IMG/VR virus record: IMGVR_UViG_2909314774_000001
DNA length: 64,000 nt
Strand: one strand, 5' to 3'
From: a virus
Lineage: Duplodnaviria; Heunggongvirae; Uroviricota; Caudoviricetes
Position numbers and translations under genes: made by a program
Shown: positions 2,510 through 27,800 of the stretch, piece by piece
Layout of the letters: every line of letters begins with the position of its first letter
How positions within the stretch are numbered: position 1 is the stretch's first letter
Notes under the pieces: generated by a model
The model's input: the letters and a program-made list of their open reading frames with translations, nothing else
What the model was told of the DNA's origin: nothing
Database searches by the model: none

Positions 2510-3292
2510 GTGCCAATTGTCGGTGTTCCCGGTTGGATTGGGTCTTCGGCTGTCAGTGTGACAGGCCAGAGATGGATGAGTGCGGCTCGAACGGCGGTGC
2601 AACTGCCAGCGGCTGGTTCAATGTCTCAAATGGCCGGGCGATCTAAAGAAGTTCAGTACAGCATCGGTGCGAATCATAACTACAACAAAGACACACTGAT
2701 CAACTATTTAAAATCCCAGGGGGCGACGCCAGTCGTTGTTACCATTACAGGGGATCTGGTGTCGTCCAGTAGCGGCGTGCCATGTTTAGATTTCCCGAGT
2801 TCACTTACCAACTCTTATATCAGCCTTGTAATCAACGCAGGTGTGACTGTCTATGGACGCGGTGGCAATGGTGGTAGTAACGCTGCCGGTGCTGCTGGTG
2901 GTAACGCAATTAATAATGGCATCGGTACACGCTTGCGTATTACGAATAATGGTGCAATCGCTGGAGGTGGCGGCGGCGGTGGCGGCGGTAACAGGGGTAA
3001 ACTAATATTTGGTGGTGGCGGTGGTCGCCCATTCGGTGCTGGTGGGTCTTCCTCTCATATGAGTTCCGGTGCAACTGCTGGTACTATTTCCGCTCCTGGT
3101 AAAGGATCTGTTGGTGAGGGGTCTCTTAGTGCATATACAGGCGGTTCGGGTGGTAATGTCGGTGCTGCTGGAGGAAGATGTAATACTCAAGGTAACGGTA
3201 CAGAATATAACGGCGGAGCAGCTGGTAAAGCCGTAACTGGCAACGCGCCTACATGGACTAAAGCTGGGGCAATTTACGGCGCTCATGTGTAA
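2510..3292 (+). CDS. gp38-like tail fibre adhesin with glycine-rich motifs
   Basis: N-terminus VGVPGWIGSSAV..TGQRWMS and repeated poly-Gly tracts (GGGGGGGGGN, GGGGG) resemble T2/S16-type gp38 adhesins. Start moved to in-frame GTG 2510, which has AAGGAG 8 nt upstream; the ORF-track ATG at 2453 overlaps the previous gene. Confidence 0.55.
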   Translation: MPIVGVPGWIGSSAVSVTGQRWMSAARTAVQLPAAGSMSQMAGRSKEVQYSIGANHNYNKDTLINYLKSQGATPVVVTITGDLVSSSSGVPCLDFPSSLTNSYISLVINAGVTVYGRGGNGGSNAAGAAGGNAINNGIGTRLRITNNGAIAGGGGGGGGGNRGKLIFGGGGGRPFGAGGSSSHMSSGATAGTISAPGKGSVGEGSLSAYTGGSGGNVGAAGGRCNTQGNGTEYNGGAAGKAVTGNAPTWTKAGAIYGAHV

Positions 3293-14998: not shown

Positions 14999-15210
14999 TC
15001 GTATTAAGTAAAAGGGAGAAAGAAACGCTTCATGAAATCAGTAAGTGGCCGGAGTTCCCTGAGTACTGGAAGCCTAAAACGCGAGCTAAGTTAGAGCGTT
15101 TAGGGTTGGTTGCAAACGTTTCTGAAACGTGGTGCTCGGCCAACTACCAGTTAACTGATAAAGGGAAAGTATTGCTACAGCAATTAGTAGAATCAGGAGT
15201 GTTAAAATGA
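14995..15210 (+). CDS. Hypothetical small protein
   Basis: 71-codon ORF, start overlaps the ligase stop. Confidence 0.4.
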   Translation: MIVLSKREKETLHEISKWPEFPEYWKPKTRAKLERLGLVANVSETWCSANYQLTDKGKVLLQQLVESGVLK

Positions 15211-15359
15211 TTCCATACATCTCATTAGCTTTTATGGGTGGCTTCCTTATCGGCTTCGGCATCTGTCGTGATTTAATTAAGCAGGAACTTAAAACCAAAA
15301 CACTGTGCATCGGAAAGCGTGTGTATCGGGTAGTTCATGAAACAAAGGTTAGAAAATGA
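15207..15359 (+). CDS. Small membrane protein (50 aa), translationally coupled
   Basis: ATGA overlaps at both ends; hydrophobic helix ISLAFMGGFLIGFGIC; below the ORF-track length cut-off. Confidence 0.35.
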   Translation: MIPYISLAFMGGFLIGFGICRDLIKQELKTKTLCIGKRVYRVVHETKVRK

Positions 15360-16160: not shown

Positions 16161-16424
16161 GACGGGATTGTTGTGTAGGTTTAACCACTGTTGCCATTGG
16201 TGCCTGTTTTCACAACAAATGATTCCATACATCACATTGTATAAATTACAAAGTAGGTGCTGTCCTCAGAAACATCATCTACTTAAAGATTTTGCCTTCT
16301 ACTATTGAGCGAAGTCGAAAGCGTCTGGCACTAACGAAAAGTGCAAGTAGCGGTGCGTTTCCTGGCAGAAACTAAACCGTCGCGATTGGCACTGTTGAGT
16401 AATAAATACTGGCAGTGCTGAATT

Positions 16425-16499
16425 GATGGTGTAGCTCAGCGGTAGAGCAGTTGGCTGTTAACCAACTGGTCGGTGGTTCGAATCCACCCACCATCGCCA
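16425..16499 (+). tRNA. tRNA-Asn (anticodon GTT)
   Basis: Hand-folded cloverleaf: acceptor GATGGTG/CACCATC, anticodon loop CTGTTAA, T-loop GGTTCGAATCC, 3' CCA encoded. Confidence 0.85.
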
Positions 16500-16504
16500 A
16501 TTTA

Positions 16505-16591
16505 GGGGAGTTAGTCCGTAGGGGCAGCGGGGTAGACTGTAAATCTACTGTCATTGCGACTCGGGTGGTTCGACTCCATCACTCCCCACCA
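16505..16591 (+). tRNA. tRNA-Tyr (anticodon GTA), class II with long variable arm; D-arm non-canonical
   Basis: Acceptor GGGGAGT/ACTCCCC, anticodon arm GTAGA-CTGTAAA-TCTAC, T-loop TTCGACT, CCA encoded; the D-arm would not fold canonically by hand. Confidence 0.6.
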
Positions 16592-16595
16592 AATT

Positions 16596-16671
16596 GCCGG
16601 TTTAGCTCAGTTGGTAGAGCGCCTGCCTTGTAAGCAGGATGTCAGCGGTTCGATCCCGTTAACCGGCACCA
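16596..16671 (+). tRNA. tRNA-Thr (anticodon TGT)
   Basis: Acceptor GCCGGTT/AACCGGC, D-arm GCTCAGTTGGTAGAGC, anticodon loop CTTGTAA, T-loop TTCGATC, CCA encoded. Confidence 0.85.
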
Positions 16672-16762
16672 ACACAACAGGTAAGAGCATTGGGCGAATC
16701 GGCGATACTGACCACAAGCCCGTAAATCGATAGAGTCAGACCAGTGCTCTTACCGTTGTGAG
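16672..16762. repeat. Long imperfect hairpin C (candidate structured RNA)
   Basis: Arms CAACAGGTAAGAGCATTGG / CCAGTGCTCTTACCGTTG, ~47 nt loop; begins right after tRNA-Thr. Confidence 0.5.
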
Positions 16763-16807
16763 GAAGTGCAGCTCTTTGAAGCAACCAGAAGATAAGCATC
16801 TGGCTTC

Positions 16808-16892
16808 ACAACACAACGATAAGATCATTACGGTTAATCGTCGTTCATGTGCACAATGACTGGTCGAAAGGTAGTGATCTTACCGTTGTGAT
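16808..16892. repeat. Long imperfect hairpin D (candidate structured RNA)
   Basis: Arms CAACGATAAGATCA / TGATCTTACCGTTG, ~48 nt loop. Confidence 0.5.
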
Positions 16893-16990
16893 GAATGCAC
16901 AGGCTGATGTGCCGCAACTACAGTAGTGCGCGCTTTGCGGGGCTTGCTACAACCCTGTGTCGGAGTTCAGCACCGACCATCACAATAGCT

Positions 16991-17074
16991 GGAGAGTAGG
17001 GAGCATGGTGCTCAAGCGGTCTTGAAATCCGTCCCATTGTGCAAACGATGATGGTTCGATTCCATTACTCTCCG
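16991..17074 (+). tRNA. tRNA-Ser (anticodon TGA), class II; D-arm and anticodon stem imperfect
   Basis: Acceptor GGAGAGT/ACTCTCC with discriminator G and CCA; anticodon loop CTTGAAA; T-loop TTCGATT; long variable arm. Confidence 0.55.
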
Positions 17075-17075
17075 C

Positions 17076-17157
17076 CAGACACAGCGTTGAGCGGTTTGGC
17101 CTTTTAATCAACCAGATTAAGACTCCGCTAACATAAACCAGACCGCTCAACGCTGTG
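17076..17157. repeat. Long imperfect hairpin E (candidate structured RNA)
   Basis: Arms ACAGCGTTGAGCGGTTTGG / CCAGACCGCTCAACGCTGT, ~38 nt loop; directly after tRNA-Ser. Confidence 0.5.
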
Positions 17158-17269: not shown

Positions 17270-18532
17270 TTACTTTGCATAGTCGCCCAATTTTAATATT
17301 TCGCGCTTATATTCATTAACCATGCTACTGGATTCAGTATAAATTCGATTTAAAAGATTATCGTTATCTTTATTTTCATTTATCTTAATTAGTGCTAATT
17401 TATATTCATAGTCATCAAATGCCACAATTAAATGGTGGCCTGGGATTATATCTTCGTCACTCTTAAAGTATATATCTTCAAGTATGTAATCTAGTTGATT
17501 AGATTTTCTTTTCTCGATGTAATCTTCAGCCATAGCTATTACATCATTCCTGTCATTTAACCTGTTTTTTTCGGAAGGCACATCTTCGTAATGTTGCACG
17601 ATTGAACAACCAATAAGGCGTGGGATGTAAACGTCAAAATGAGTAACTCTATCATTCGCGGTTTTAAGTAGTTCCTCAAAGTAGTTTCTTACATGTAAAG
17701 GCAACTTCTCAAAGTAATCATTAATTATAGGAGAACAAGGAGTTTTATAATTCATAAGAACCGACGGTACGAGCTTTGGGTGTCGAAACATCCAGTCCCT
17801 TTTAACGTCCGATGGAACATAATAACTTTTAATGATATTATCAAAATAATTTATCATTCGAGATTTGAATATTTTGTTGAATCTAAGGTTTATGAATGTA
17901 TCCAGATAAGGCATATTTGAATAAGCATCATCAAAAAATATTTCATCATTGAAAAAATCATATTTATTCAATAAACAACACAGTTTTTCCGAATTAATAT
18001 GTTCACAATAATCGATTTTTAATCCAAAGATAGCAATGATCAACTTCATCTGAGGTGGGATTTTAAAAATTAATTGTGACACATACGCTCTTTTTTCCTT
18101 GAGACATTCCCCATCAATATAAAATGAACCATCCACATACTCAAATATATTAATAATATGCTTCACATACTGTATTACCTCATGCTGTCTTACCAATGGG
18201 TAATATAGTCTATGTAACTCATCGCTGTTTAAATTAATTTTGTGTTTATCGATAATTTGTTTTGCAAGAAGACATAACTCATCATGTTGATTTAATAAGG
18301 AATCAAACCATTGTTTAAATGCACTCTTTCGCATTTCGAACAATGATTCAGTTGTTAATTGAAGGGCTGAAAAAGCTGCTTTTGCACTTTTTCTCGCTTC
18401 GTAGGCATTCCATGCTGTTGCTATAAAAGCAAATGCTGTAGCCAATGTTCCAACAGTTTGACCATTTAAAACAACCCAATCCCAAAAAATGACGGTGAGC
18501 AGTAGTATAATAATGAAAATTAAAAAAGGCAT
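17270..18532 (-). CDS. Membrane-anchored protein of unknown function (420 aa), AT-rich island
   Basis: N-terminal hydrophobic helices (FLIFIIILLLTVIFWDWVVL; TLATAFAFIATAW) then a large Asn/Tyr/Lys/Phe-rich soluble domain; base composition far more AT-rich than flanking genes. Confidence 0.6.
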   Translation of the reverse strand: MPFLIFIIILLLTVIFWDWVVLNGQTVGTLATAFAFIATAWNAYEARKSAKAAFSALQLTTESLFEMRKSAFKQWFDSLLNQHDELCLLAKQIIDKHKINLNSDELHRLYYPLVRQHEVIQYVKHIINIFEYVDGSFYIDGECLKEKRAYVSQLIFKIPPQMKLIIAIFGLKIDYCEHINSEKLCCLLNKYDFFNDEIFFDDAYSNMPYLDTFINLRFNKIFKSRMINYFDNIIKSYYVPSDVKRDWMFRHPKLVPSVLMNYKTPCSPIINDYFEKLPLHVRNYFEELLKTANDRVTHFDVYIPRLIGCSIVQHYEDVPSEKNRLNDRNDVIAMAEDYIEKRKSNQLDYILEDIYFKSDEDIIPGHHLIVAFDDYEYKLALIKINENKDNDNLLNRIYTESSSMVNEYKREILKLGDYAK

Positions 18533-18706
18533 GTATGTATTTCACTCTACTAACTATAAAATATTAGGCTAATGTTAACCAAACAATGCCTTAATTAATA
18601 GATTGATCGAGGCTTTAATAGCTTTATAATGCAGATTGCAAAGATAAGTATGCACACACCTATCTTCTTTGTAAGTAAAGTTGCATATCAATTCTATGAG
18701 GTAACA

Positions 18707-18952
18707 ATGACAATCACTATCTACGGACGAGATAACTGCTCATACTGCAAACGTGCGGTCGAGCTGGCGAAGCAACTAAAGGGACATGGCTACGGTGATT
18801 ATGAGTACATCGACATCACTACTGCCGGTATCGACAAGGAAAAACTTAGTGAAATTGTTGGTAAACCGGTAGAGACTATCCCCCAAGTACTGATCGATGG
18901 TCAACCGATTGGCGGATACACAGAACTGGCTGCATACGTCAGCACCCTCTGA
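18707..18952 (+). CDS. Glutaredoxin (NrdH/Grx-like)
   Basis: Thioredoxin-fold N-terminus MTITIYGRDNCSYCKRA with CxxC active site; start moved to ATG 18707, with GAGG upstream. Confidence 0.75.
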   Translation: MTITIYGRDNCSYCKRAVELAKQLKGHGYGDYEYIDITTAGIDKEKLSEIVGKPVETIPQVLIDGQPIGGYTELAAYVSTL

Positions 18953-18958
18953 TTTTAA

Positions 18959-18981
18959 CGGCTCACAGGAGCCGTTTTTTA
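18959..18981 (+). terminator. Intrinsic terminator
   Basis: CGGCTC-ACAG-GAGCCG followed by TTTTTT. Confidence 0.65.
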
Positions 18982-19163
18982 TTCCCACCAAACTCACTCC
19001 TGTTTCCCTTAAAATTCAAAAAACAACGTCTAAATGATTCCATACCTACTATGTATGGAATCATTGCTGAAAATGAGTTACTTTTACTCTTGATCCTATA
19101 AGAATCTATGCCTAATATACTGTTTACTTATACAGTGCATCGGCGTAACTCGGTGATTGTCAT

Positions 19164-20267
19164 ATGAAAAATAGCTTTGACAGAGCACGCGCTGCGGAGA
19201 ACACCTCAAAAGAGGCGATAGAGTATCTCGAAAGAGCATCTCAAATGCAGGCCGTTATGATCTCCCAGGTCAGCAATGACATGAGATTCTCGGACGCATT
19301 CATGTTATTCACTCGCTTATCTCTGCTGATAACCAGACGTCGGCCAGAGATCGCTGTTCATTGTATTTTGATACATGTTTTGCCGCACATTGCCGATGTA
19401 AAAGTAAGTGACATTAATAGGTTCATGGTGAACCAACTGGTCAACCCACTAATACTGGATGGCAAAATTGTTATGGGCCGCCGCGTTTTCTCTCTGATGA
19501 AGCAGTTCCTTAGCTGGTGCGCCTTCCAGGGGATGATAGACGTGTCACCGTTAAACGATATGTCACTTAACAAAGTTGCCGGTGGCGCAAAGCCCACACC
19601 TCGCGAGCGGAAGCTGACCGACGCAGAGGTATGGGTGTTCTGGAATATATGGGACTACTTCAATGTGTGTGCTGGTACAAAATGGGCGGCCAGGCTATGT
19701 CTTGTATCCGCAAGACGACCTGACGAAGTACTGCGGGCTAAAAAAAGTGAGTTCAATCTTAAGCGTGGGGTTTGGAATCAAGGCAAGAGGAACAAATCTG
19801 CCCGTGAGCATTCTCTGCCTTTAAGCTCATTAATGCGCACTTGTATTGAAGAGTTGTTCGAATATGGTAAAGACAGCCAGTGGCTCGTGCCTTCGAATAA
19901 AAAAATCGGGAAAGACCTTCCTATGTCTAAAGTGGCAATAGCCCAGGCATTACGTCGTATTCTGGAACGACCAGAACTGATGGAGCTTGAGCCATTTACA
20001 CCCCGAGATTTGCGCCGTACTGCGCGTAGTTACTTCCCAGCATTAGGCATAAGCCAGGAGGTATCACGTAAAATCATGAACCACAGTCTTGAGGGGATAG
20101 ATCGGGTCTACGACCGGCACGATTATATGGACGAGATGCGAGACGCCTTAGAAAGTTTCTCGACGTACATCGCATCAATCGTAGAGCAACCGGATTTAGA
20201 CGAAATTGACCACAAATTTAAGGGAGATCGTCTATCAACAGAGCTTATTCGTGTAAATTTTTCATAG
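19164..20267 (+). CDS. Tyrosine recombinase (phage-integrase family) lacking an N-terminal arm-binding domain
   Basis: Core-binding and catalytic domains with R...H..R...Y-type segments (LVSARRPDEV..., ...RDLRRTARSYF..., HSLEGIDRVYDRHDY); nothing upstream resembles an arm-binding domain. Confidence 0.7.
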   Translation: MKNSFDRARAAENTSKEAIEYLERASQMQAVMISQVSNDMRFSDAFMLFTRLSLLITRRRPEIAVHCILIHVLPHIADVKVSDINRFMVNQLVNPLILDGKIVMGRRVFSLMKQFLSWCAFQGMIDVSPLNDMSLNKVAGGAKPTPRERKLTDAEVWVFWNIWDYFNVCAGTKWAARLCLVSARRPDEVLRAKKSEFNLKRGVWNQGKRNKSAREHSLPLSSLMRTCIEELFEYGKDSQWLVPSNKKIGKDLPMSKVAIAQALRRILERPELMELEPFTPRDLRRTARSYFPALGISQEVSRKIMNHSLEGIDRVYDRHDYMDEMRDALESFSTYIASIVEQPDLDEIDHKFKGDRLSTELIRVNFS

Positions 20268-20648
20268 AGACTTTATGGCCTCAACAACCTTTTGTGATGC
20301 GCCTTTCTCTTTACCGAATCGCTCGTTATATGCAGCAAGAACCTGTTTTTCGTCCTCGTTAAGAGGAGCAGTGCCTTCTTTGTATAAAAATGCTGCGAGT
20401 TCGGGTTGGCGTTCTTCCAGCACCATCATCATAAGACGACTTGGCTCAATACCCAGTGCCAGCGCCAGCGGACGAACCTTATCGATAGGCAAAGGAATTT
20501 TGCCGCTTTTAATTAAAGAAAGGTTGTTGGCGTTTTTATACCCAATTGTTTTGGCTATCTGGGCCTGGCTCATAGGTGAGGATTCAATCAACCCTGCGAT
20601 AAAAGCAGCGTAGCGACTTTCTATAAATTCAATCTTGTTATCAGACAT
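20262..20648 (-). CDS. XRE-family helix-turn-helix transcriptional regulator
   Basis: HTH segment SQAQIAKTIGYKNANNLSLIKSGK; divergent from the downstream + strand genes; its promoter region carries a GGTAAGTGCTTACC palindrome. Confidence 0.7.
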   Translation of the reverse strand: MSDNKIEFIESRYAAFIAGLIESSPMSQAQIAKTIGYKNANNLSLIKSGKIPLPIDKVRPLALALGIEPSRLMMMVLEERQPELAAFLYKEGTAPLNEDEKQVLAAYNERFGKEKGASQKVVEAIKSL

Positions 20649-20899
20649 GGTTACAACCTTTGCGCGTTCAATTCTCTCTGGTAAGTGCTTACCGATATTA
20701 CATCAAAGGTTAGGGTTGTAAAGCTATTATCATTTTTTTCGATAGGCACTTAAAAGACCGGTTAAAGGCCATTGCACGGAGAAAAATTAGCCCAAAACAG
20801 GTAAGAAAATCAACTTGCATATGATATGAATGTATTCAGTATTGATACAAATTTTAGTAGTATTCCTTACCATAATATAAGTTAGAATGGATTGATTGA

Positions 20900-21112
20900 A
20901 TGAACACCACTATTTCCAGCCTAATCGCTCTTGAGATCGGACACGTACAGAAATTAGCTGATGAGTGTGTAGCTGACATCCTCACCGATCTACCGAATGA
21001 GCAGATTCAGGTTGGTGTGAATGACACAACTGGATTTATATTCGAACTTAACAACAAACGCTTCACGCTTCTCAATACCGGCTCCGGGTCTTTAGCCGTC
21101 AGAATCTGTTAA
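20900..21112 (+). CDS. Hypothetical protein
   Basis: 70-codon ORF downstream of an AT-rich divergent promoter region. Confidence 0.4.
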   Translation: MNTTISSLIALEIGHVQKLADECVADILTDLPNEQIQVGVNDTTGFIFELNNKRFTLLNTGSGSLAVRIC

Positions 21113-21210: not shown

Positions 21211-23319
21211 ATGTCTAAAAAACGTTCCATCAAAGAGGTTCAGGACTTCCGTGACAGTGTAAAACGAGTAGTCGCTCTCCTTTCAGGTAAAAACATCCCT
21301 GTTGCAGAACGAGGGGACGACGCTTATGTACGCTATAACGATGATGGAGAGCCAATTCTCGTAAACATCCCATCAATCCCGGATAACGCAACACCGGCAT
21401 TGATGAATGCTGTGCGCGGATTTCTCGATCATGAGGTTGCTCACATTTTGTTTACCGATATTCGTGTGTCCAACAAAATGAGAGAAAAAGGACGCGTTCC
21501 TTCCTGGTCGCTATGGAATGCCTTAGAAGACGTGTTCATCGAGCGAAAAATGGGTCAGGTCTTTAACGGAACAAGACGTAATCTGATGGCAACTCAGCGC
21601 CTTATAATCGAAAAAGTCTTTAAACCAAAGGCTTCAGAGGCTATTGCTTATTGTGGCAAAGATCAGCGCGCGCTTTTTCTAAACTTCTTTCTCTGTCCGG
21701 TTGTAAGAGCCTGGGATGGCCAAGCACCGTTCGTAGATTTCATGGATGAATATTGGCCTGTCATTGAGAAACCAATTTCATTATTAAAAGAACATGGTAT
21801 CGATGTGGCCGTGCGTAACATGTCTTGCACCGAGGATTGTGTAAAGGTGGCTGCGACCATAGCTAAGATCCTCAAAGACACTGAAAGTGAAAGCAAAGGT
21901 AAGGAGTCAGCTCCGGGAAAAACTTCCGATCCTTCAGACGCTGACCAGACGGATGCCTCTGGAGAAAACAATGAAGACAACGAAGATCATGAGACACCCT
22001 CATCGTTAGATAATCACAAATCTATTAAATCAGAGTCACATAGTAAGCACAAACATGATAATAACGACAGTGATGATTCAGATAATCCTGAATCATCAGA
22101 AACAATATTCGATGATACAGAAAATGATAAAGCGGTATCAGATTCTGATGCTTCTGATAACGCGGCGTCAGAATCATTAACCGCTGACCACGAAAAAAGA
22201 AAAACGACAGAAGACGGCTCTTCAGACATTCCAACTCCGTCAAAAATGAGTCTGGAAGAGGCTTTAGAGGAGTTGGATAGCATGGAAGATGAAGTCGGAG
22301 GCATGACAGAAGATGCGCTATCCGAAACGATTAAAAGCGAGTTAACAGAAAGCTCGAAAAGCGAATACAGGCCATACAATCGCTCATACGACTTCATCGG
22401 CTCGATTGATCAGGCAGAAGCCCATATCAAACGGCTTATTAAAACATTCTCCGATATTGATTTAGGTGGATATCCAATCAGCCGTTATCGCATCGTTCCT
22501 GAAGGCAACCAACTCTTCGACAAATATATTGAAAAGCACCTTTCGTCAGGTGTTTCGTCGACGCTGGCAAAAGACCTGGAACGTGCAATAGCAAGCAGAA
22601 ACAGAGTTCAGTTTATACCTGGCCAGCGTCGGGGGCGCATTCATGGTTCAAGTATCTACAGATTAACAATGAATGATGATCGCGTGTTTCGTAAAAAAGA
22701 AGAATCTAAAGCCGTTAACGCCTGTGTTCAACAAGTGATTGATTTATCGGGTTCAATGAGTGGCGAAACGATAAAACTAGCTCTTGCAAGTGCATATACC
22801 ATCGCCGATGCACTTGATCGAATAAATGTTCCCAACATTATCACCGGCTTCACTACATTTGGCAGTCATATGGCAGCAGGAGAACTTAAGGCTATCAAAT
22901 ATGAGTTCTCTCGCTTTGAATCTTTAATGCTACCTATCATCAAAAATTGGAATGAAAAAGCAAATTCTCGCGAAGTTCGCTCACGTATGGGGTGCGTAGG
23001 CTACACATTCCCACTTCTTAATAACGTGGATGGTGAAAGCATAGCCAGCCTTGCATCGTTATTTTCCGGTCGCTTGGAGGACAGGAAGATCATGCTTGTT
23101 CTGAGCGATGGCGCGCCGTGGGCTGTTGGGAGAGGTTTTGACGCCCATTTGCGTTCGGTTACGAAGCAAATTGAAACGCAGACTGACATTGATTTGATGG
23201 CAATTGGCATCATGACTGATGCACCGGAGAGATTTTACGCAAATCATGCCCTGGTAACTAGTGTTGATAGTCTTGGTTCATCTGTAGTTACTGAACTATC
23301 TCGTATCATTTTGAAGTAA
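21211..23319 (+). CDS. von Willebrand factor A domain protein (CobT-like) with long acidic Ser/Asp-rich disordered insert
   Basis: MIDAS motif DLSGSMSG in the C-terminal half; central ~110 residue low-complexity acidic segment. Confidence 0.65.
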   Translation: MSKKRSIKEVQDFRDSVKRVVALLSGKNIPVAERGDDAYVRYNDDGEPILVNIPSIPDNATPALMNAVRGFLDHEVAHILFTDIRVSNKMREKGRVPSWSLWNALEDVFIERKMGQVFNGTRRNLMATQRLIIEKVFKPKASEAIAYCGKDQRALFLNFFLCPVVRAWDGQAPFVDFMDEYWPVIEKPISLLKEHGIDVAVRNMSCTEDCVKVAATIAKILKDTESESKGKESAPGKTSDPSDADQTDASGENNEDNEDHETPSSLDNHKSIKSESHSKHKHDNNDSDDSDNPESSETIFDDTENDKAVSDSDASDNAASESLTADHEKRKTTEDGSSDIPTPSKMSLEEALEELDSMEDEVGGMTEDALSETIKSELTESSKSEYRPYNRSYDFIGSIDQAEAHIKRLIKTFSDIDLGGYPISRYRIVPEGNQLFDKYIEKHLSSGVSSTLAKDLERAIASRNRVQFIPGQRRGRIHGSSIYRLTMNDDRVFRKKEESKAVNACVQQVIDLSGSMSGETIKLALASAYTIADALDRINVPNIITGFTTFGSHMAAGELKAIKYEFSRFESLMLPIIKNWNEKANSREVRSRMGCVGYTFPLLNNVDGESIASLASLFSGRLEDRKIMLVLSDGAPWAVGRGFDAHLRSVTKQIETQTDIDLMAIGIMTDAPERFYANHALVTSVDSLGSSVVTELSRIILK

Positions 23320-24856: not shown

Positions 24857-27800
24857 CTTCTCACTTGGGGAGTCGGCTCTAAAAGCAGAAAACGCGGTGA
24901 AGATTGCCAGAGAAGCTGGCTACACCGCTGTAATTTCAGCAGATAGCATGAATATTGCAAGTGTTATTCCACTACAACGTGCCGCTGGTGACGACATGGC
25001 GGTTATTTGTGGTGTGAAACTAAACATTGTTGATGATCCCACATACGAGCACCGGGCTAAACTTGCTAAAGAATCTATGAGATGTATGGAATCATTAGAG
25101 CGGGGACGTAACTACTCGTTTACCGCTCTAATTAAAAATGAGCAAGGATATCGCGACATCTGCGAACTAATGACGGCGGCCAACACACGAGAACAGTTCT
25201 ACTTTGTACCGCGTCTCTCGCTCGAACAGTTGGTTTCTACATATGCCAAAGGCAACATCATCCTGCTTACTTCCGACATCGGTAGCGTGTTCCAACGCAA
25301 CGATTTTGCAAAAATCATAAGCACACTGATTACAGCGGGTGGAAAAGACAACTTCTATAGTGTGGTTTATCCGCACCCTACCCCATTCTACGACCAGATT
25401 AACGTCCGGGCGATGAAAGTCGCCAGCGCATTGAAAATAGAGCCAGTGGCGTTCTATCCCGCTTATTACGAATCGATCGACGATGCAGACATTAAAGACA
25501 TTGCGCACATGGTTACGAACAACATCAAAATCGACCAGCCGCATCGTCTGCGTATCCCCCACCAGCGAGATAACGCCGTCAATGGTCGCCGCCATCTCCT
25601 TGAGGCGCTTAAAGCCTTCTCCGTTCGCATGGATGTGCCGGTAACAGCTGCAATGGCCTCAACAACGCAGGATACCATTATCGATGCCTGCACATGGCGC
25701 TGGCATGAATTGCCGCCAGCACTGCCAAAGATGGCAGACGACGAGCCTGCAACGCTTATGAAACTGGCTGTTGCAGGGCTGCGTAAACGTCTTACCACAA
25801 AAGAGTTTGGCTACACACCACCTGCTTCTGAGAACAGGGTTTATGTTGAGCGGCTAAAGTACGAAATGGACACGCTGACTCGCCTGGGATTTTGTGGTTA
25901 CTTCCTGATGGTACGCGATCTGATGAATCATAGTCGTGAAACTGGCATTCCCGTTGGGCCTGGTCGTGGTTCCTCTGCCGGTTCTCTGGTGGCGTGGTGC
26001 ATAGGCATAACCAACGTCGACCCAATCCGTCACGGTCTTCTGTTTGAGCGTTTCATCAACCCTGAGCGTCTCGACTTGCCGGATGCGGACTTGGACTTCA
26101 GCCAGGCACGTCGCCATGAGGTGATCGAGTATCTGAATGAACGCTACGGCGAAGATTACGTTGCGGGTATTCCGAACTTCACCTACCTGGGCGCAGCCTC
26201 TGCACTACGTGATACCGCTCGTATTTATGGTGTGGAGTCCGCAGATATGGCGGTATCAAAAGAACTGAAGAACGCTGAGGATGATAGCCTTCCATTGGAA
26301 GAACTGCGCGAACAACTGGCAAGTCTCGACAAATACGCAACAAAATATCCTGATGCATTCAATGCAGCCTGCAAGTTACAAAGCCTTATGCGTGGCTTTG
26401 GTAGACATGCGGCAGGGATGATCGTAGCAGGTGTTCCTCTGACAGAACGTACACCGGTTGAGCGCCGTGGTGACGCGCGTTGTATCGCATTTGACAAGCG
26501 TTACTGCGAGGCTATGGGCCTAATTAAGCTGGACGTGCTTGGCCTGGCAACTCTCGATTTGCTCGATAGTGCAAAACGCTACATAAAAGAGAACACAGGT
26601 GAAGATATCAATCTTGATGCCATTTCTCTTGAAGATCGCAAGGTGCTGGATGGTTTTGCTGCTGGGTACACTCAAGGTGTTTTCCAGCTTGAATCAGGCC
26701 CAATGCGCAAGCTGCTTAAAGATTTAGGTGGTGGAATTGAGCCAATGAGCTTTAAAACGGTCGTCGCTACAACTGCGCTCTTCCGGCCGGGGCCAATTCA
26801 ATCAGGCATGTTGGATGACTATGTTTCTGTCGCCAAAGGCTTTATGACGCCGGAATCATTACACCCCGTTCTTGATGAACTTACCGCGGAAACAAATGGC
26901 GTGATTCTCTATCAGGAACAGACGATGAACGCGACTCGATTGCTTGCCGGCTTCACAATGGCTGAAGCTGACGCTGTGCGTTCCGCAATCGGTAAGAAGA
27001 ACATGGAAAAAATGAAGAGCATGGGCGAGAAGTTCATCGTTCAGGCTCAAGCTGGCTGGATAGACGTTGAGCTGGAAGATGGCACTACACAGCGCATTCA
27101 CCGTGCGGAACATTTTAAATGCGAAGACGGAACTCTGAAAACTGTCGAAGAGGCACTTGAGCACGGCGCAAAACTACCTATAAACGCAGTACGCGTTACA
27201 GCGTCACATCCAGGGCTATCAGAGATGAAAGCGAAGGAGATCTGGACCGCATTTGAGAAAAACGGAGCCTATCAGTTCAATAAATCACACTCCGTTGCTT
27301 ATTCTTTAATCAGTTATCAGTCTATGTGGCTAAAGACGCACTACCCTGCTGAGTTCTTCGCAGCTGCGCTCACCATTCTGGGCGAGGATAAGCATCAGGG
27401 GCTGGTGAAGGATGCGCTGACCTATGGCATTCGCGTATTGCCACCAGACGTTAATGTGTCATCTAACCGAATTGAGATCCGCACACTCGAAGACGGCAGT
27501 CAGGCACTGTATGCGCCATTCTCTGCTGTGAAAGGCTGTTCTGAAAATGGTTGTCAGGCAATTATGCGTGCGCGTGAGAAAGTTGGTGGCAAATTCGAGT
27601 CAGTGGCACAATTCGATGAAGCGGTCGAGAAGCGTGCATGTAACAGTCGTGTACGCGAGTCGCTTCATAAAGTAGGGGCTTTTGCGTCAATTGAGCCAGG
27701 CAGTCTTCCAGCAACTGATCCTGAACGACTGCGCGACCAGGCTGAGCTGATGGGCAATCTCATCATTGACGCTGTTAAAGCATCACGTCCGTTCGAAATG

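What the first reader, a model, noticed from the sequence alone, without database searches (positions are those of the whole stretch)
19164..20693. Tyrosine recombinase without an arm-binding domain beside an XRE regulator
The recombinase has core-binding and catalytic regions but its N-terminus shows no arm-binding domain, and it is paired with a convergent HTH regulator whose promoter carries a palindromic site. In an element that otherwise looks plasmid-maintained this is more consistent with a dimer-resolution or inversion recombinase than with an integration module. I could not find an obvious attP-like tRNA fragment nearby.
Basis: partly seen in the sequence, partly recalled or inferred. 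Interest (0 to 1): 0.4.

Follow-up and report, generated by a model that had tools for sequence, protein, structure and literature searches.

The report
Lox-like recombinase module of phage-plasmids
This gene encodes a stripped-down site-specific recombinase that sits next to its own 33-base palindromic target on a phage that lives as a plasmid; it most likely keeps plasmid copies as single circles rather than inserting the phage into the chromosome, and the family has not been studied by experiment in any paper I could find.

Summary
Window 19164-20267 (+) encodes a 367-aa tyrosine recombinase with core-binding and catalytic domains and no arm-binding domain. It converges on, and overlaps by 6 nt, a 128-aa XRE-type HTH gene (20262-20648, -). 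That gene's promoter carries the conserved palindrome GGTAAGTGCTTACC.

The window is an SSU5/pHCM2/pMT1-type phage-plasmid of E. coli.

- A perfect 13-7-13 palindrome (19033-19065) lies 98 bp before the ATG. It occurs once per plasmid. In 58 species-representative genomes it always lies beside an int homologue, and its two arms co-vary.
- A LexA box (19118-19137) overlaps the int -10 element. It is the only exact one on the 112-kb plasmid.

The module was never chromosomal in 5,426 complete E. coli genomes. No attB-like sequence, second site, serine resolvase or Xer site was found. Phage SSU5 has deleted the module and still grows lytically.

Best reading: a Cre/lox-like multimer-resolution module derived from P4-type integrases, SOS-wired in the phage-plasmid clade. 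Activity is untested. I rate it a new variant of a known kind, of moderate interest.

The parts
19010..19024 (.). Loosely conserved A/T-rich motif (TAAAATTCAAAAAAC; relatives have TCAGAtTTcAAAAAA) about 9 bp outside the left arm. It may be an accessory or bending element.
   Evidence: Present in Cyrano, pHCM2, Enterobacter and Klebsiella plasmids, and absent in pMT1. Its function is not tested.
19033..19045 (+). Left arm of the candidate recombination site: AATGATTCCATAC.
   Evidence: Perfect inverted repeat of the right arm. The 11 inner bases are invariant or co-vary with the other arm in 56 distinct sites.
19046..19052 (+). 7-bp asymmetric spacer, CTACTAT, the presumed crossover region.
   Evidence: Varies between lineages around the consensus CTATTAA. 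It occurs in both orientations relative to int.
19053..19065 (+). Right arm of the candidate recombination site: GTATGGAATCATT.
19090..19118 (+). int promoter: -35 TTGATC (19090-19095), 17-nt spacer, -10 TAATAT (19113-19118).
   Evidence: Read from the sequence. Both hexamers are conserved in the alignment of seven relatives. The tool's consensus scan did not list it.
19118..19137 (.). LexA (SOS) box TACTGTTTACTTATACAGTG, overlapping the -10 element.
   Evidence: CTGT-N8-ACAG is conserved in all SSU5-like relatives fetched, apart from a degenerate copy in Buttiauxella, and is absent in the megaplasmid clade. It is the only exact match in the window and in the 112-kb plasmid. int mRNA rises about 26-fold in SOS-inducing macrophages.
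19164..20267 (+). Arm-less tyrosine recombinase gene, 367 aa.
20262..20648 (-). XRE-type HTH protein (128 aa), convergent with int and overlapping it by 6 nt. Probably the prophage repressor.
   Evidence: Annotated as 'putative repressor' CYRAN_45 and expressed 10-fold above prophage background in lysogens.
20680..20722 (-). Promoter of the HTH gene (-35 TTTACA 20722-20717; -10 TAATAT 20700-20695) with the operator-like palindrome GGTAAGTGCTTACC (20680-20693).

Best explanation
This is a self-contained 'simple' tyrosine-recombinase module comparable to Cre/loxP of phage P1. The protein descends from P4-type integrases and has lost the arm-binding beta-sheet. It is expected to bind as a dimer to the two inverted 13-bp arms of the single 33-bp site that lies 98 bp upstream of its own gene, and to exchange strands across the 7-bp asymmetric spacer.

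Each replicon carries one site. The productive reaction is therefore between directly repeated sites in plasmid dimers or multimers, which returns them to monomers so that the low-copy, roughly 110-kb plasmid prophage can be partitioned. By analogy with Cre, it could also circularise terminally redundant virion DNA after infection.

In the phage-plasmid clade the gene is read from a sigma-70 promoter overlapped by a LexA box. Synthesis would then be low during normal growth and would rise during the SOS response, when RecA-driven recombination produces more multimers and the prophage is induced.

Shown: the gene, its domain content, the site, the coupling and co-variation of site and gene, the exclusively plasmid location, the LexA box, and the rise in transcript. 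Inferred: binding, cleavage positions, the resolution function, and LexA control.
For: - The site is a perfect 13-7-13 palindrome, with none expected by chance in the window.
- In a scan of 185,579 species-representative genomes the palindrome was found 58 times. In 57 cases an int homologue (34-86% identity to this Int by tblastn, 45% or more except where the 8-kb locus cuts the gene short) starts 41-150 bp away and reads away from it. The one exception lies at the end of its locus.
- The two arms co-vary although the search pattern did not require it. At position -8 the pairs are C:G 45, T:A 11, with none mismatched. At position -3 they are G:C 44, T:A 11, with one mismatched. The arm class follows the Int clade.
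- There is one site per plasmid.
- None of 254 places in 5,426 complete E. coli genomes is chromosomal, and no chromosomal look-alike of the site exists.
- The arm-binding domain is absent and the catalytic residues are conserved.
- The 112-kb plasmid has no other candidate resolution system: no serine resolvase, no second tyrosine recombinase and no dif/cer-like Xer site.
- The same module sits on non-phage megaplasmids of Pantoea, Rahnella and Erwinia, without the HTH neighbour where I inspected the annotation. Its function is therefore a plasmid function.
- Phage SSU5 has deleted the module together with the repressor and still grows lytically.
- For the LexA box and the expression data.
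Against: - No experiment on this family was found in the searchable literature. Gilcrease and Casjens 2018, the most likely place for a discussion, is not held.
- A resolution enzyme is usually made constitutively or is autoregulated. LexA repression is unusual for one and more typical of integron integrases.
- The DNA immediately outside the left arm is a hot spot of variable cargo, which hints at a role in gene exchange.
- The spacer points either way relative to int in different lineages.
- Three conserved single-arm copies elsewhere in the genome are not explained.
- His II is replaced by Arg in the whole family.
- The palindrome could also serve as an operator.
Confidence: 0.6

Rival explanations
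1. It is a conventional integrase. The palindrome is the core of an attP, and the phage-plasmid can insert into a chromosomal attB, perhaps only under SOS conditions or in hosts other than E. coli.
For: - By sequence the protein belongs to the P4/CP4-57 integrase lineage (NF007246 partial match; PHROG 1 'integrase').
- SOS-induced expression would suit a switch between states.
- The review literature notes that some phage-plasmids alternate between integrated and plasmid states.
Against: - None of 254 copies is chromosomal in 5,426 complete E. coli genomes.
- No chromosomal match to the site exists at E <= 10.
- No orphan palindrome was found in 185,579 species-representative genomes.
- There is no arm-binding domain.
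- No repeated arm-type motifs occur around the core.
- All contigs inspected show the usual plasmid synteny beside int.
Confidence: 0.08
2. It is a gene-exchange platform. Int joins the phage-plasmid to other replicons that carry the same site. Later separation swaps the DNA on one side, which would explain the variable cargo next to the site. The arrangement parallels integron intI/attI, which is also LexA-controlled.
For: - The segment left of the site differs in every lineage: the caf1 F1-capsule operon in pMT1, YafO toxin-antitoxin genes and a colicin immunity gene in Klebsiella and Enterobacter, a highly expressed moron in Cyrano, and nothing in this window.
- In pMT1, and in several E. 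coli plasmids, similarity stops at the outer edge of the left arm.
- The LexA box resembles integron integrase control. That comparison rests on general knowledge of integrons, not on a test here.
Against: - Cargo is never flanked by two sites.
- In most lineages similarity resumes about 20 bp outside the arm and includes a conserved A-tract, so the break is not at the crossover.
- No attC-like elements were seen and no integron-integrase family matched.
- Mosaic breakpoints are also expected next to ordinary resolution sites.
- This reading is compatible with the main explanation rather than exclusive of it.
Confidence: 0.15
3. The palindrome is only a regulatory element, either an operator for Int or another protein or an RNA hairpin. 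Int is then an inactive or purely regulatory relic. Its SOS-driven transcription into the convergent repressor gene would be what matters.
For: - In the megaplasmid clade a -10-like element lies about 15 nt after the site, so the promoter probably overlaps the right arm, which would give autoregulation.
- int and the repressor gene converge and overlap with no terminator between them.
- int is the only gene on the plasmid with a LexA box, while Cyrano is induced by ciprofloxacin.
Against: - All catalytic residues, including the tyrosine nucleophile, are invariant across 43 sequences down to 42% identity.
- The geometry of arms plus a 7-bp asymmetric spacer is that of a crossover site.
- The arm sequence itself is conserved, not just its pairing, which argues against a mere RNA hairpin.
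- No T-tract follows the stem.
- The module persists without the repressor gene in the megaplasmids inspected.
Confidence: 0.1
4. It is a DNA inversion switch that flips a segment between two inverted sites.
For: Arm-less tyrosine recombinases such as Rci do this. The spacer orientation differs between lineages.
Against: There is only one full site per plasmid. The three extra copies are single arms with no partner arm.
Confidence: 0.02

Closest known systems
Cre/loxP of phage-plasmid P1
   Same: - Both are arm-less, two-domain tyrosine recombinases encoded next to a single site of about 33 bp, made of 13-bp inverted arms around an asymmetric spacer.
- Both sit on a low-copy plasmid prophage of enterobacteria.
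- The expected role is the same: resolving multimers and possibly circularising incoming DNA.
   Different: - There is no detectable sequence relationship. phmmer against PDB found nothing. Foldseek ranks Cre at E 0.09-0.5, well behind lambda Int at 2e-6.
- The spacer is 7 bp, against 8 bp in loxP.
- The promoter carries a LexA box.
- The protein descends from P4-type integrases.
P4/CP4-57/SXT-type integrases (Pfam PF13356 + PF22022 + PF00589)
   Same: They are the nearest sequence relatives (26-34% identity). They share the core-binding and catalytic domains and the C-terminal motif around the tyrosine (VYDRHDY).
   Different: - The family here lacks the arm-binding beta-sheet of about 65 residues.
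- Its site is a symmetric palindrome with no arm-type repeats.
- It is never found integrated.
- His II is replaced by Arg.
ResD/rfsF of plasmid F and Rsd/crs of the Salmonella virulence plasmid; XerS/difSL and XerH/difH
   Same: Each is a single tyrosine recombinase encoded beside the one site on which it acts to resolve replicon dimers. This comparison comes from general knowledge and was not tested here.
   Different: The protein lineages differ. Foldseek aligns XerH only at E 3e-4 or worse. Nothing suggests FtsK dependence. The site sequence is unrelated.
Integron integrase IntI with attI
   Same: The recombinase promoter carries a LexA box, the site lies immediately upstream of the gene, and variable cargo lies directly beyond the site.
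   Different: There are no attC cassettes, the cargo is not flanked by sites, and no integron-integrase family matched. The site is a plain double-stranded palindrome.

Membership tests
Heterobivalent phage integrases (lambda/P4 type) | N-terminal arm-binding domain (PF13356 / PF09003) | tested here: not met
   No Pfam or NCBIfam match on residues 1-70. The family is 340-380 aa without PF13356, whereas distant relatives carry it. The alignment shows a gap there, and the modelled N-terminus is helical.
Heterobivalent phage integrases (lambda/P4 type) | Catalytic domain with the R-K-H-R-H/W-Y residues | tested here: met
   PF00589 scores 2.9e-10. R185, K211, R284, H307 and Y316 are invariant, and R281 stands in place of His II.
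Heterobivalent phage integrases (lambda/P4 type) | Integrated copies and a chromosomal attB that shares the core with attP | tested here: not met
   None of 254 places is chromosomal. No chromosomal match to the site exists at E <= 10 in 5,426 E. coli genomes. No orphan palindromes were found in 185,579 genomes. Only E. coli chromosomes were searched sensitively.
Heterobivalent phage integrases (lambda/P4 type) | Arm-type repeats flanking the core, and an adjacent excisionase | tested here: inconclusive
   No repeated motif lies within the intergenic region apart from the palindrome. The neighbours scanned are an XRE HTH protein and a 70-aa protein of unknown function. A small excisionase elsewhere cannot be excluded.
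Simple tyrosine recombinase plus site modules (Cre/loxP-like; functional class) | Protein with core-binding and catalytic domains only | tested here: met
Simple tyrosine recombinase plus site modules (Cre/loxP-like; functional class) | Site of about 30-34 bp: inverted 11-13-bp arms around a 6-8-bp asymmetric spacer | tested here: met
   13-7-13 at 19033-19065. The arms are conserved and co-vary while the spacer varies.
Simple tyrosine recombinase plus site modules (Cre/loxP-like; functional class) | One site per replicon, linked to the gene | tested here: met
   179 records gave 179 places. Whole-plasmid scans agree. In 57 of 58 loci int is 41-150 bp away.
Simple tyrosine recombinase plus site modules (Cre/loxP-like; functional class) | Recombination between two sites without accessory factors; multimer resolution in vivo | not testable with these tools
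   This needs biochemical or genetic assays. No published assay was found.
Cre protein family (sequence homology) | Detectable sequence or close structural similarity to Cre | tested here: not met
   phmmer against all PDB chains gave no hit at E <= 1. Foldseek places Cre and Tre at E 0.09-0.5 and TM about 0.4.
Integron integrase / attI platform | IntI-type protein and attC-bounded cassettes | tested here: not met
   No integron-integrase NCBIfam match. Cargo is not bounded by a second site.
LexA (SOS) regulon | CTGT-N8-ACAG box overlapping the promoter, conserved in relatives | tested here: met
   The box at 19118-19137 overlaps the -10 element. It is conserved in the SSU5-like relatives with Int at least 59% identical, with a degenerate copy in Buttiauxella. 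It is unique on the plasmid.
LexA (SOS) regulon | LexA binding and DNA-damage-dependent expression | tested here: inconclusive
   Published RNA-seq of the 99%-identical Cyrano gene shows log2 5.6 in LB against 10.3 in macrophages, an SOS-inducing setting. Neighbouring genes also rise, and no lexA mutant or binding data exist.
Xer/dif systems | A dif/cer-like XerC-XerD site on the plasmid | tested here: not met
   A relaxed pattern scan of the 112-kb plasmid found none, while shuffles gave 0-3.

The most novel reading that the evidence does not exclude
In SSU5-type phage-plasmids the int promoter could be the element's DNA-damage sensor. LexA cleavage would unleash transcription through int and on into the convergent, overlapping repressor gene. 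That would lower the repressor by transcriptional interference or antisense RNA while supplying the recombinase. In addition, Int-mediated exchange at the site would move cargo between replicons, including the F1 capsule operon of the plague plasmid pMT1, whose junction lies exactly at the arm edge.
Probability: 0.15. Interest if true: 0.7.

Novelty: new variant of a known kind. Interest (0 to 1): 0.45.

Why it matters
The module occurs in 4.6% of complete E. coli genomes (251 of 5,426). It is also on the plague plasmid pMT1, the typhoid plasmid pHCM2, hundreds of Klebsiella and Enterobacter phage-plasmids that can carry resistance genes, and the large plasmids of Pantoea, Rahnella and Erwinia.

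If it is the multimer-resolution system, it is a maintenance function of all these replicons and a possible target for curing them. A recombinase with a defined 33-bp site unrelated to loxP or FRT could also become an additional, orthogonal genome-engineering tool. Two natural specificity classes exist, with arms TGATTCCATAC and TGACTCCAGAC.

The family also shows how a heterobivalent integrase can be simplified into a Cre-like enzyme by losing its arm-binding sheet. The LexA box links plasmid-prophage recombination to the SOS response.

Tried and rejected
- **tRNA-fragment attP.** ARAGORN finds only four intact tRNA genes 2-2.7 kb upstream and nothing at the locus.
- **Second site, for inversion or excision.** None was found in the window, in the 112-kb plasmid, in 179 PLSDB plasmids or in a Providencia plasmid.
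- **Chromosomal attB or integrated copies.** None.
- **Other resolution systems on the plasmid.** No serine resolvase, second tyrosine recombinase or Xer site.
- **The palindrome as a terminator.** No T-tract follows it on either strand in relatives, and the real glutaredoxin terminator is at 18957-18976.
- **Single-arm copies as co-evolving accessory sites.** The Providencia plasmid, whose arms differ, has no such copies, so this stays unexplained.
- **Cargo captured as site-flanked cassettes.** Rejected, because there is only one site and most boundaries lie about 20 bp outside it.
- **Literature.** Searches for a functional study of this recombinase, of LexA control in SSU5-like elements, or of a resolution system on the Pantoea LPP-1 plasmid found nothing. 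Gilcrease and Casjens 2018 could not be read.
- **PADLOC.** It found no defence-system link.
Full report
**What the window is.** The region is 100% identical to E. coli plasmids of about 110 kb (for example NZ_CP047004) and 98% identical to the induced phage-plasmid Cyrano of E. coli LF82. These belong to the SSU5/pHCM2/pMT1 group of siphovirus plasmid prophages. They have an IncFIB RepA, phage head and tail genes, and DnaE and CobST-like genes. Around the finding the gene order is: four tRNA genes (16425-17077), a 420-aa protein of unknown function (17270-18532, -), glutaredoxin (18629-18952), int (19164-20267), the HTH gene (20262-20648, -), a 70-aa ORF (20900-21112) and CobT (21211-23319).

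**The observation.** It is correct.
- Int has a Pfam catalytic domain (residues 172-320) and a near-threshold core-binding domain (71-133). Nothing matches the first 70 residues.
- A database search returned a tight family of 340-380-aa proteins, none with the arm-binding domain PF13356. The next relatives, at 34% identity or less, are 400-464 aa and do have it.
- In a joint alignment the family simply lacks the roughly 65-residue beta-sheet segment. It starts at the helix that follows that segment.
- An AlphaFold model built on 43 sequences (pLDDT 83.5) has only helices before residue 60.
- Its best structural matches are the arm-less fragments lambda Int 75-356 and Tn1549 Int 82-397, followed by Xer proteins. 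Cre is a much weaker match.
- The catalytic R185, K211, R284, H307 and Y316 are invariant. The family has Arg at the His II position, in the motif RDLRRT.
- The HTH gene is convergent and overlaps int by 6 nt. Its promoter-like element (TTTACA, 16 nt, TAATAT) is followed by GGTAAGTGCTTACC, which is conserved in diverged relatives with at most one substitution.

A perfect palindrome lies 98 bp upstream of the int ATG: AATGATTCCATAC-CTACTAT-GTATGGAATCATT (19033-19065). No such match occurred in 100 shuffles of the window.
- Every relative I fetched has it at the same place. These were pMT1, pHCM2, Enterobacter, two Klebsiella lineages, Providencia and Pantoea.
- I scanned one genome for each of 185,579 species with a pattern that allowed two alternative bases at two arm positions. 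That gave 58 hits, all in Enterobacterales and one per contig.
- In 57 of these an int homologue begins 41-150 bp away and reads away from the site. The remaining hit lies at the edge of its locus.
- The two variable arm positions always change together in both arms. One position shows C:G 45, T:A 11, none mismatched. The other shows G:C 44, T:A 11, one mismatched. The search pattern did not require this.
- The arm class follows the protein clade. TGATTCCATAC goes with Int at 56% identity or more. TGACTCCAGAC goes with the Providencia/Pantoea/Rahnella/Erwinia clade, at 44-52% identity where the full gene is in the locus.
- The 7-bp spacer varies, is asymmetric (consensus CTATTAA), and points either way relative to int.
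- This is the anatomy of a lox/FRT/dif-type crossover site, recognised by a co-evolving protein. It is not the anatomy of a terminator, because no T-tract follows it. Nor is it a mere RNA hairpin, because the arm sequence itself is conserved.

**Integration, inversion or resolution.**
- Among 5,426 complete E. coli genomes the int-plus-site block occurs in 251. All 254 places are on plasmids and none is on a chromosome.
- A sensitive BLAST of the 47-nt site region at E <= 10 hits no chromosome at all.
- Contigs that carry identical or related proteins show the same plasmid synteny beside int.
- There is exactly one full site per plasmid: 179 records gave 179 places. A complete 112-kb plasmid and 100 kb of a Providencia plasmid give the same answer. 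That excludes an inversion switch.
- The 112-kb plasmid has no serine resolvase, no second tyrosine recombinase and no dif/cer-like Xer site. Int and its site are therefore the only visible multimer-resolution candidate on a plasmid kept at about 5.5 copies per cell.
- The module also sits on non-phage megaplasmids of Pantoea, Rahnella, Erwinia and others. In the two Pantoea plasmids whose annotation I inspected, unrelated genes flank it and the HTH gene is absent. The shared function is therefore a plasmid function.
- Phage SSU5 itself carries a 7.5-kb deletion relative to pHCM2. The deletion removes the site, int, the HTH gene and their neighbours, yet SSU5 is a plaque-forming phage. The module is therefore dispensable for lytic growth.
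- I conclude that multimer resolution, in the manner of Cre/lox, is the most likely role (confidence 0.6). Circularisation of infecting DNA is a possible second role, inferred only by analogy.

**SOS wiring.** Between the site and the ATG lies a promoter: TTGATC (19090-19095), 17 nt, TAATAT (19113-19118). Its -10 element overlaps a LexA box, TACTGTTTACTTATACAGTG (19118-19137).
- The promoter and box are among the most conserved columns of the intergenic alignment.
- The box is present in the SSU5-like elements whose Int is at least 59% identical, with a degenerate copy in Buttiauxella. It is absent from the megaplasmid clade, where a -10-like element sits so close to the site that the promoter probably overlaps the right arm, which suggests autoregulation.
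- It is the only exact LexA box in the window and on the whole plasmid.
- Published RNA-seq of LF82 gives the 99%-identical Cyrano int log2 values of 5.6 in overnight LB and 10.3 after 6 h in macrophages. The authors describe the macrophage environment as SOS-inducing. The repressor gene rises from 6.6 to 9.9, and the 70-aa ORF from 4.3 to 10.8.
- This fits LexA control but does not prove it, because neighbouring genes rise too.
- LexA control of a resolution enzyme is unusual. It makes sense if multimers arise mainly through RecA-dependent recombination. It also raises the possibility that SOS-driven transcription from Pint into the convergent repressor gene contributes to prophage induction. 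Cyrano is induced 39-fold by ciprofloxacin, and the 128-aa repressor has no peptidase domain. That idea is untested.

**Variable cargo beside the site.** The DNA to the left of the site differs in every lineage.
- This window has nothing there.
- Cyrano has a very highly expressed moron.
- pHCM2 has a 492-bp ORF.
- Enterobacter has YafO toxin-antitoxin genes, and Klebsiella has these plus a colicin immunity gene.
- pMT1 has the caf1 F1-capsule operon, followed by IS elements and the murine toxin gene.

In pMT1 and several E. coli plasmids similarity ends exactly at the outer edge of the left arm. In most lineages, however, a loosely conserved A-tract motif about 9 bp outside the arm still belongs to the conserved block. 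Cargo is never bounded by a second site. Exchange through the site between co-resident plasmids is plausible and would be compatible with a resolution role, but it is not demonstrated.

**Comparison with known systems and novelty.** Functionally the closest analogue is Cre/loxP of P1. Both are arm-less recombinases with an adjacent single palindromic site on a plasmid prophage. By descent, however, the protein is a truncated P4-type integrase and not a Cre relative. It fails the defining tests of a heterobivalent integrase: it has no arm domain, no attB and no integrated copies. It meets the sequence-level tests of a simple recombinase/site module. I found no experimental study of it. General phage-plasmid papers only list 'tyrosine recombinases' among the persistent genes of this group. 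I therefore rate it a new variant of a known kind, of moderate interest. Its potential uses are as an orthogonal recombinase/site pair and as a clue to how clinically important phage-plasmids are maintained and induced.

Noticed in passing
window 15207-15218 (+), 16219-16230 (+), 25084-25095 (-): There are three extra exact copies of one arm, ATGATTCCATAC, each followed by ATCWCAT and with no partner arm. With at most one mismatch the 12-mer matches five times in the window (these three plus the two arms of the full site), against 0.32 expected. The three are conserved at the same syntenic places in pHCM2, Klebsiella plasmids and SSU5, with one substitution in one SSU5 copy, although their flanks have diverged. 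One is the start of a 50-aa ORF, one lies upstream of the tRNA cluster, and one is antisense inside dnaE. Each points toward the full site. The Providencia plasmid, whose arms differ, has no equivalents. Their function is unknown.
   Followed up: partly
L076 (phage SSU5) 5980-6011, compared with pHCM2 (L070): The type phage SSU5 carries a 7.5-kb deletion relative to pHCM2. It removes most tRNA genes, phoH, glutaredoxin, the site, int, the HTH repressor and the 70-aa ORF. This probably explains why SSU5 behaves as a lytic phage.
   Followed up: yes
L002 / L072 (Yersinia pestis pMT1), junction at the left arm of the site: In pMT1 the acquired region abuts the recombination site directly, and the A-tract motif seen in other lineages is missing. 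That region runs through the caf1 operon, IS elements and ymt. pMT1 also has a serine recombinase near parAB that the E. coli element lacks.
   Followed up: partly
window 19769-19780; L002-L006 at locus position 3107: An arm-like sequence, GTATGGAATCAAG (the codons for VWNQ), lies inside the int coding sequence in pMT1, pHCM2, Enterobacter and Klebsiella relatives. It is degenerate in this window (GTTTGGAATCAAG). It could be coincidence or an autoregulatory half-site.
   Followed up: no
window 17270-18532 (-): This 420-aa ORF has no Pfam, NCBIfam or PADLOC match and hits only PHROG 18168 of unknown function. It lies in the variable stretch between the tRNA genes and glutaredoxin, where relatives carry phoH and gp49-family genes instead.
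   Followed up: partly
L073 83026-83415 (plasmid NZ_CP047004; outside or at the edge of the window): A 129-aa S24-family peptidase (UmuD/LexA-like) is annotated on the same plasmid. It could be an alternative route for SOS sensing besides the LexA box at int.
   Followed up: no
L073 23170-25560 (NZ_CP047004): The otherwise identical plasmid pCTX carries ISEcp1-blaCTX-M-55 inserted between the tRNA region and the small ORFs. The window lacks this insertion.
   Followed up: no
L071 4728-7789 (Klebsiella plasmid pKP18-8-3): In this relative, dnaE is annotated as a shorter gene followed by a NUMOD4/HNH homing endonuclease gene. This suggests an endonuclease insertion in the polymerase gene.
   Followed up: no
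window 20900-21112 (+): This 70-aa ORF is divergent from the repressor gene (PHROG 2627, unknown function). Its Cyrano homologue rises about 90-fold in macrophages, which would suit a Cro-like or early lytic gene.
   Followed up: partly
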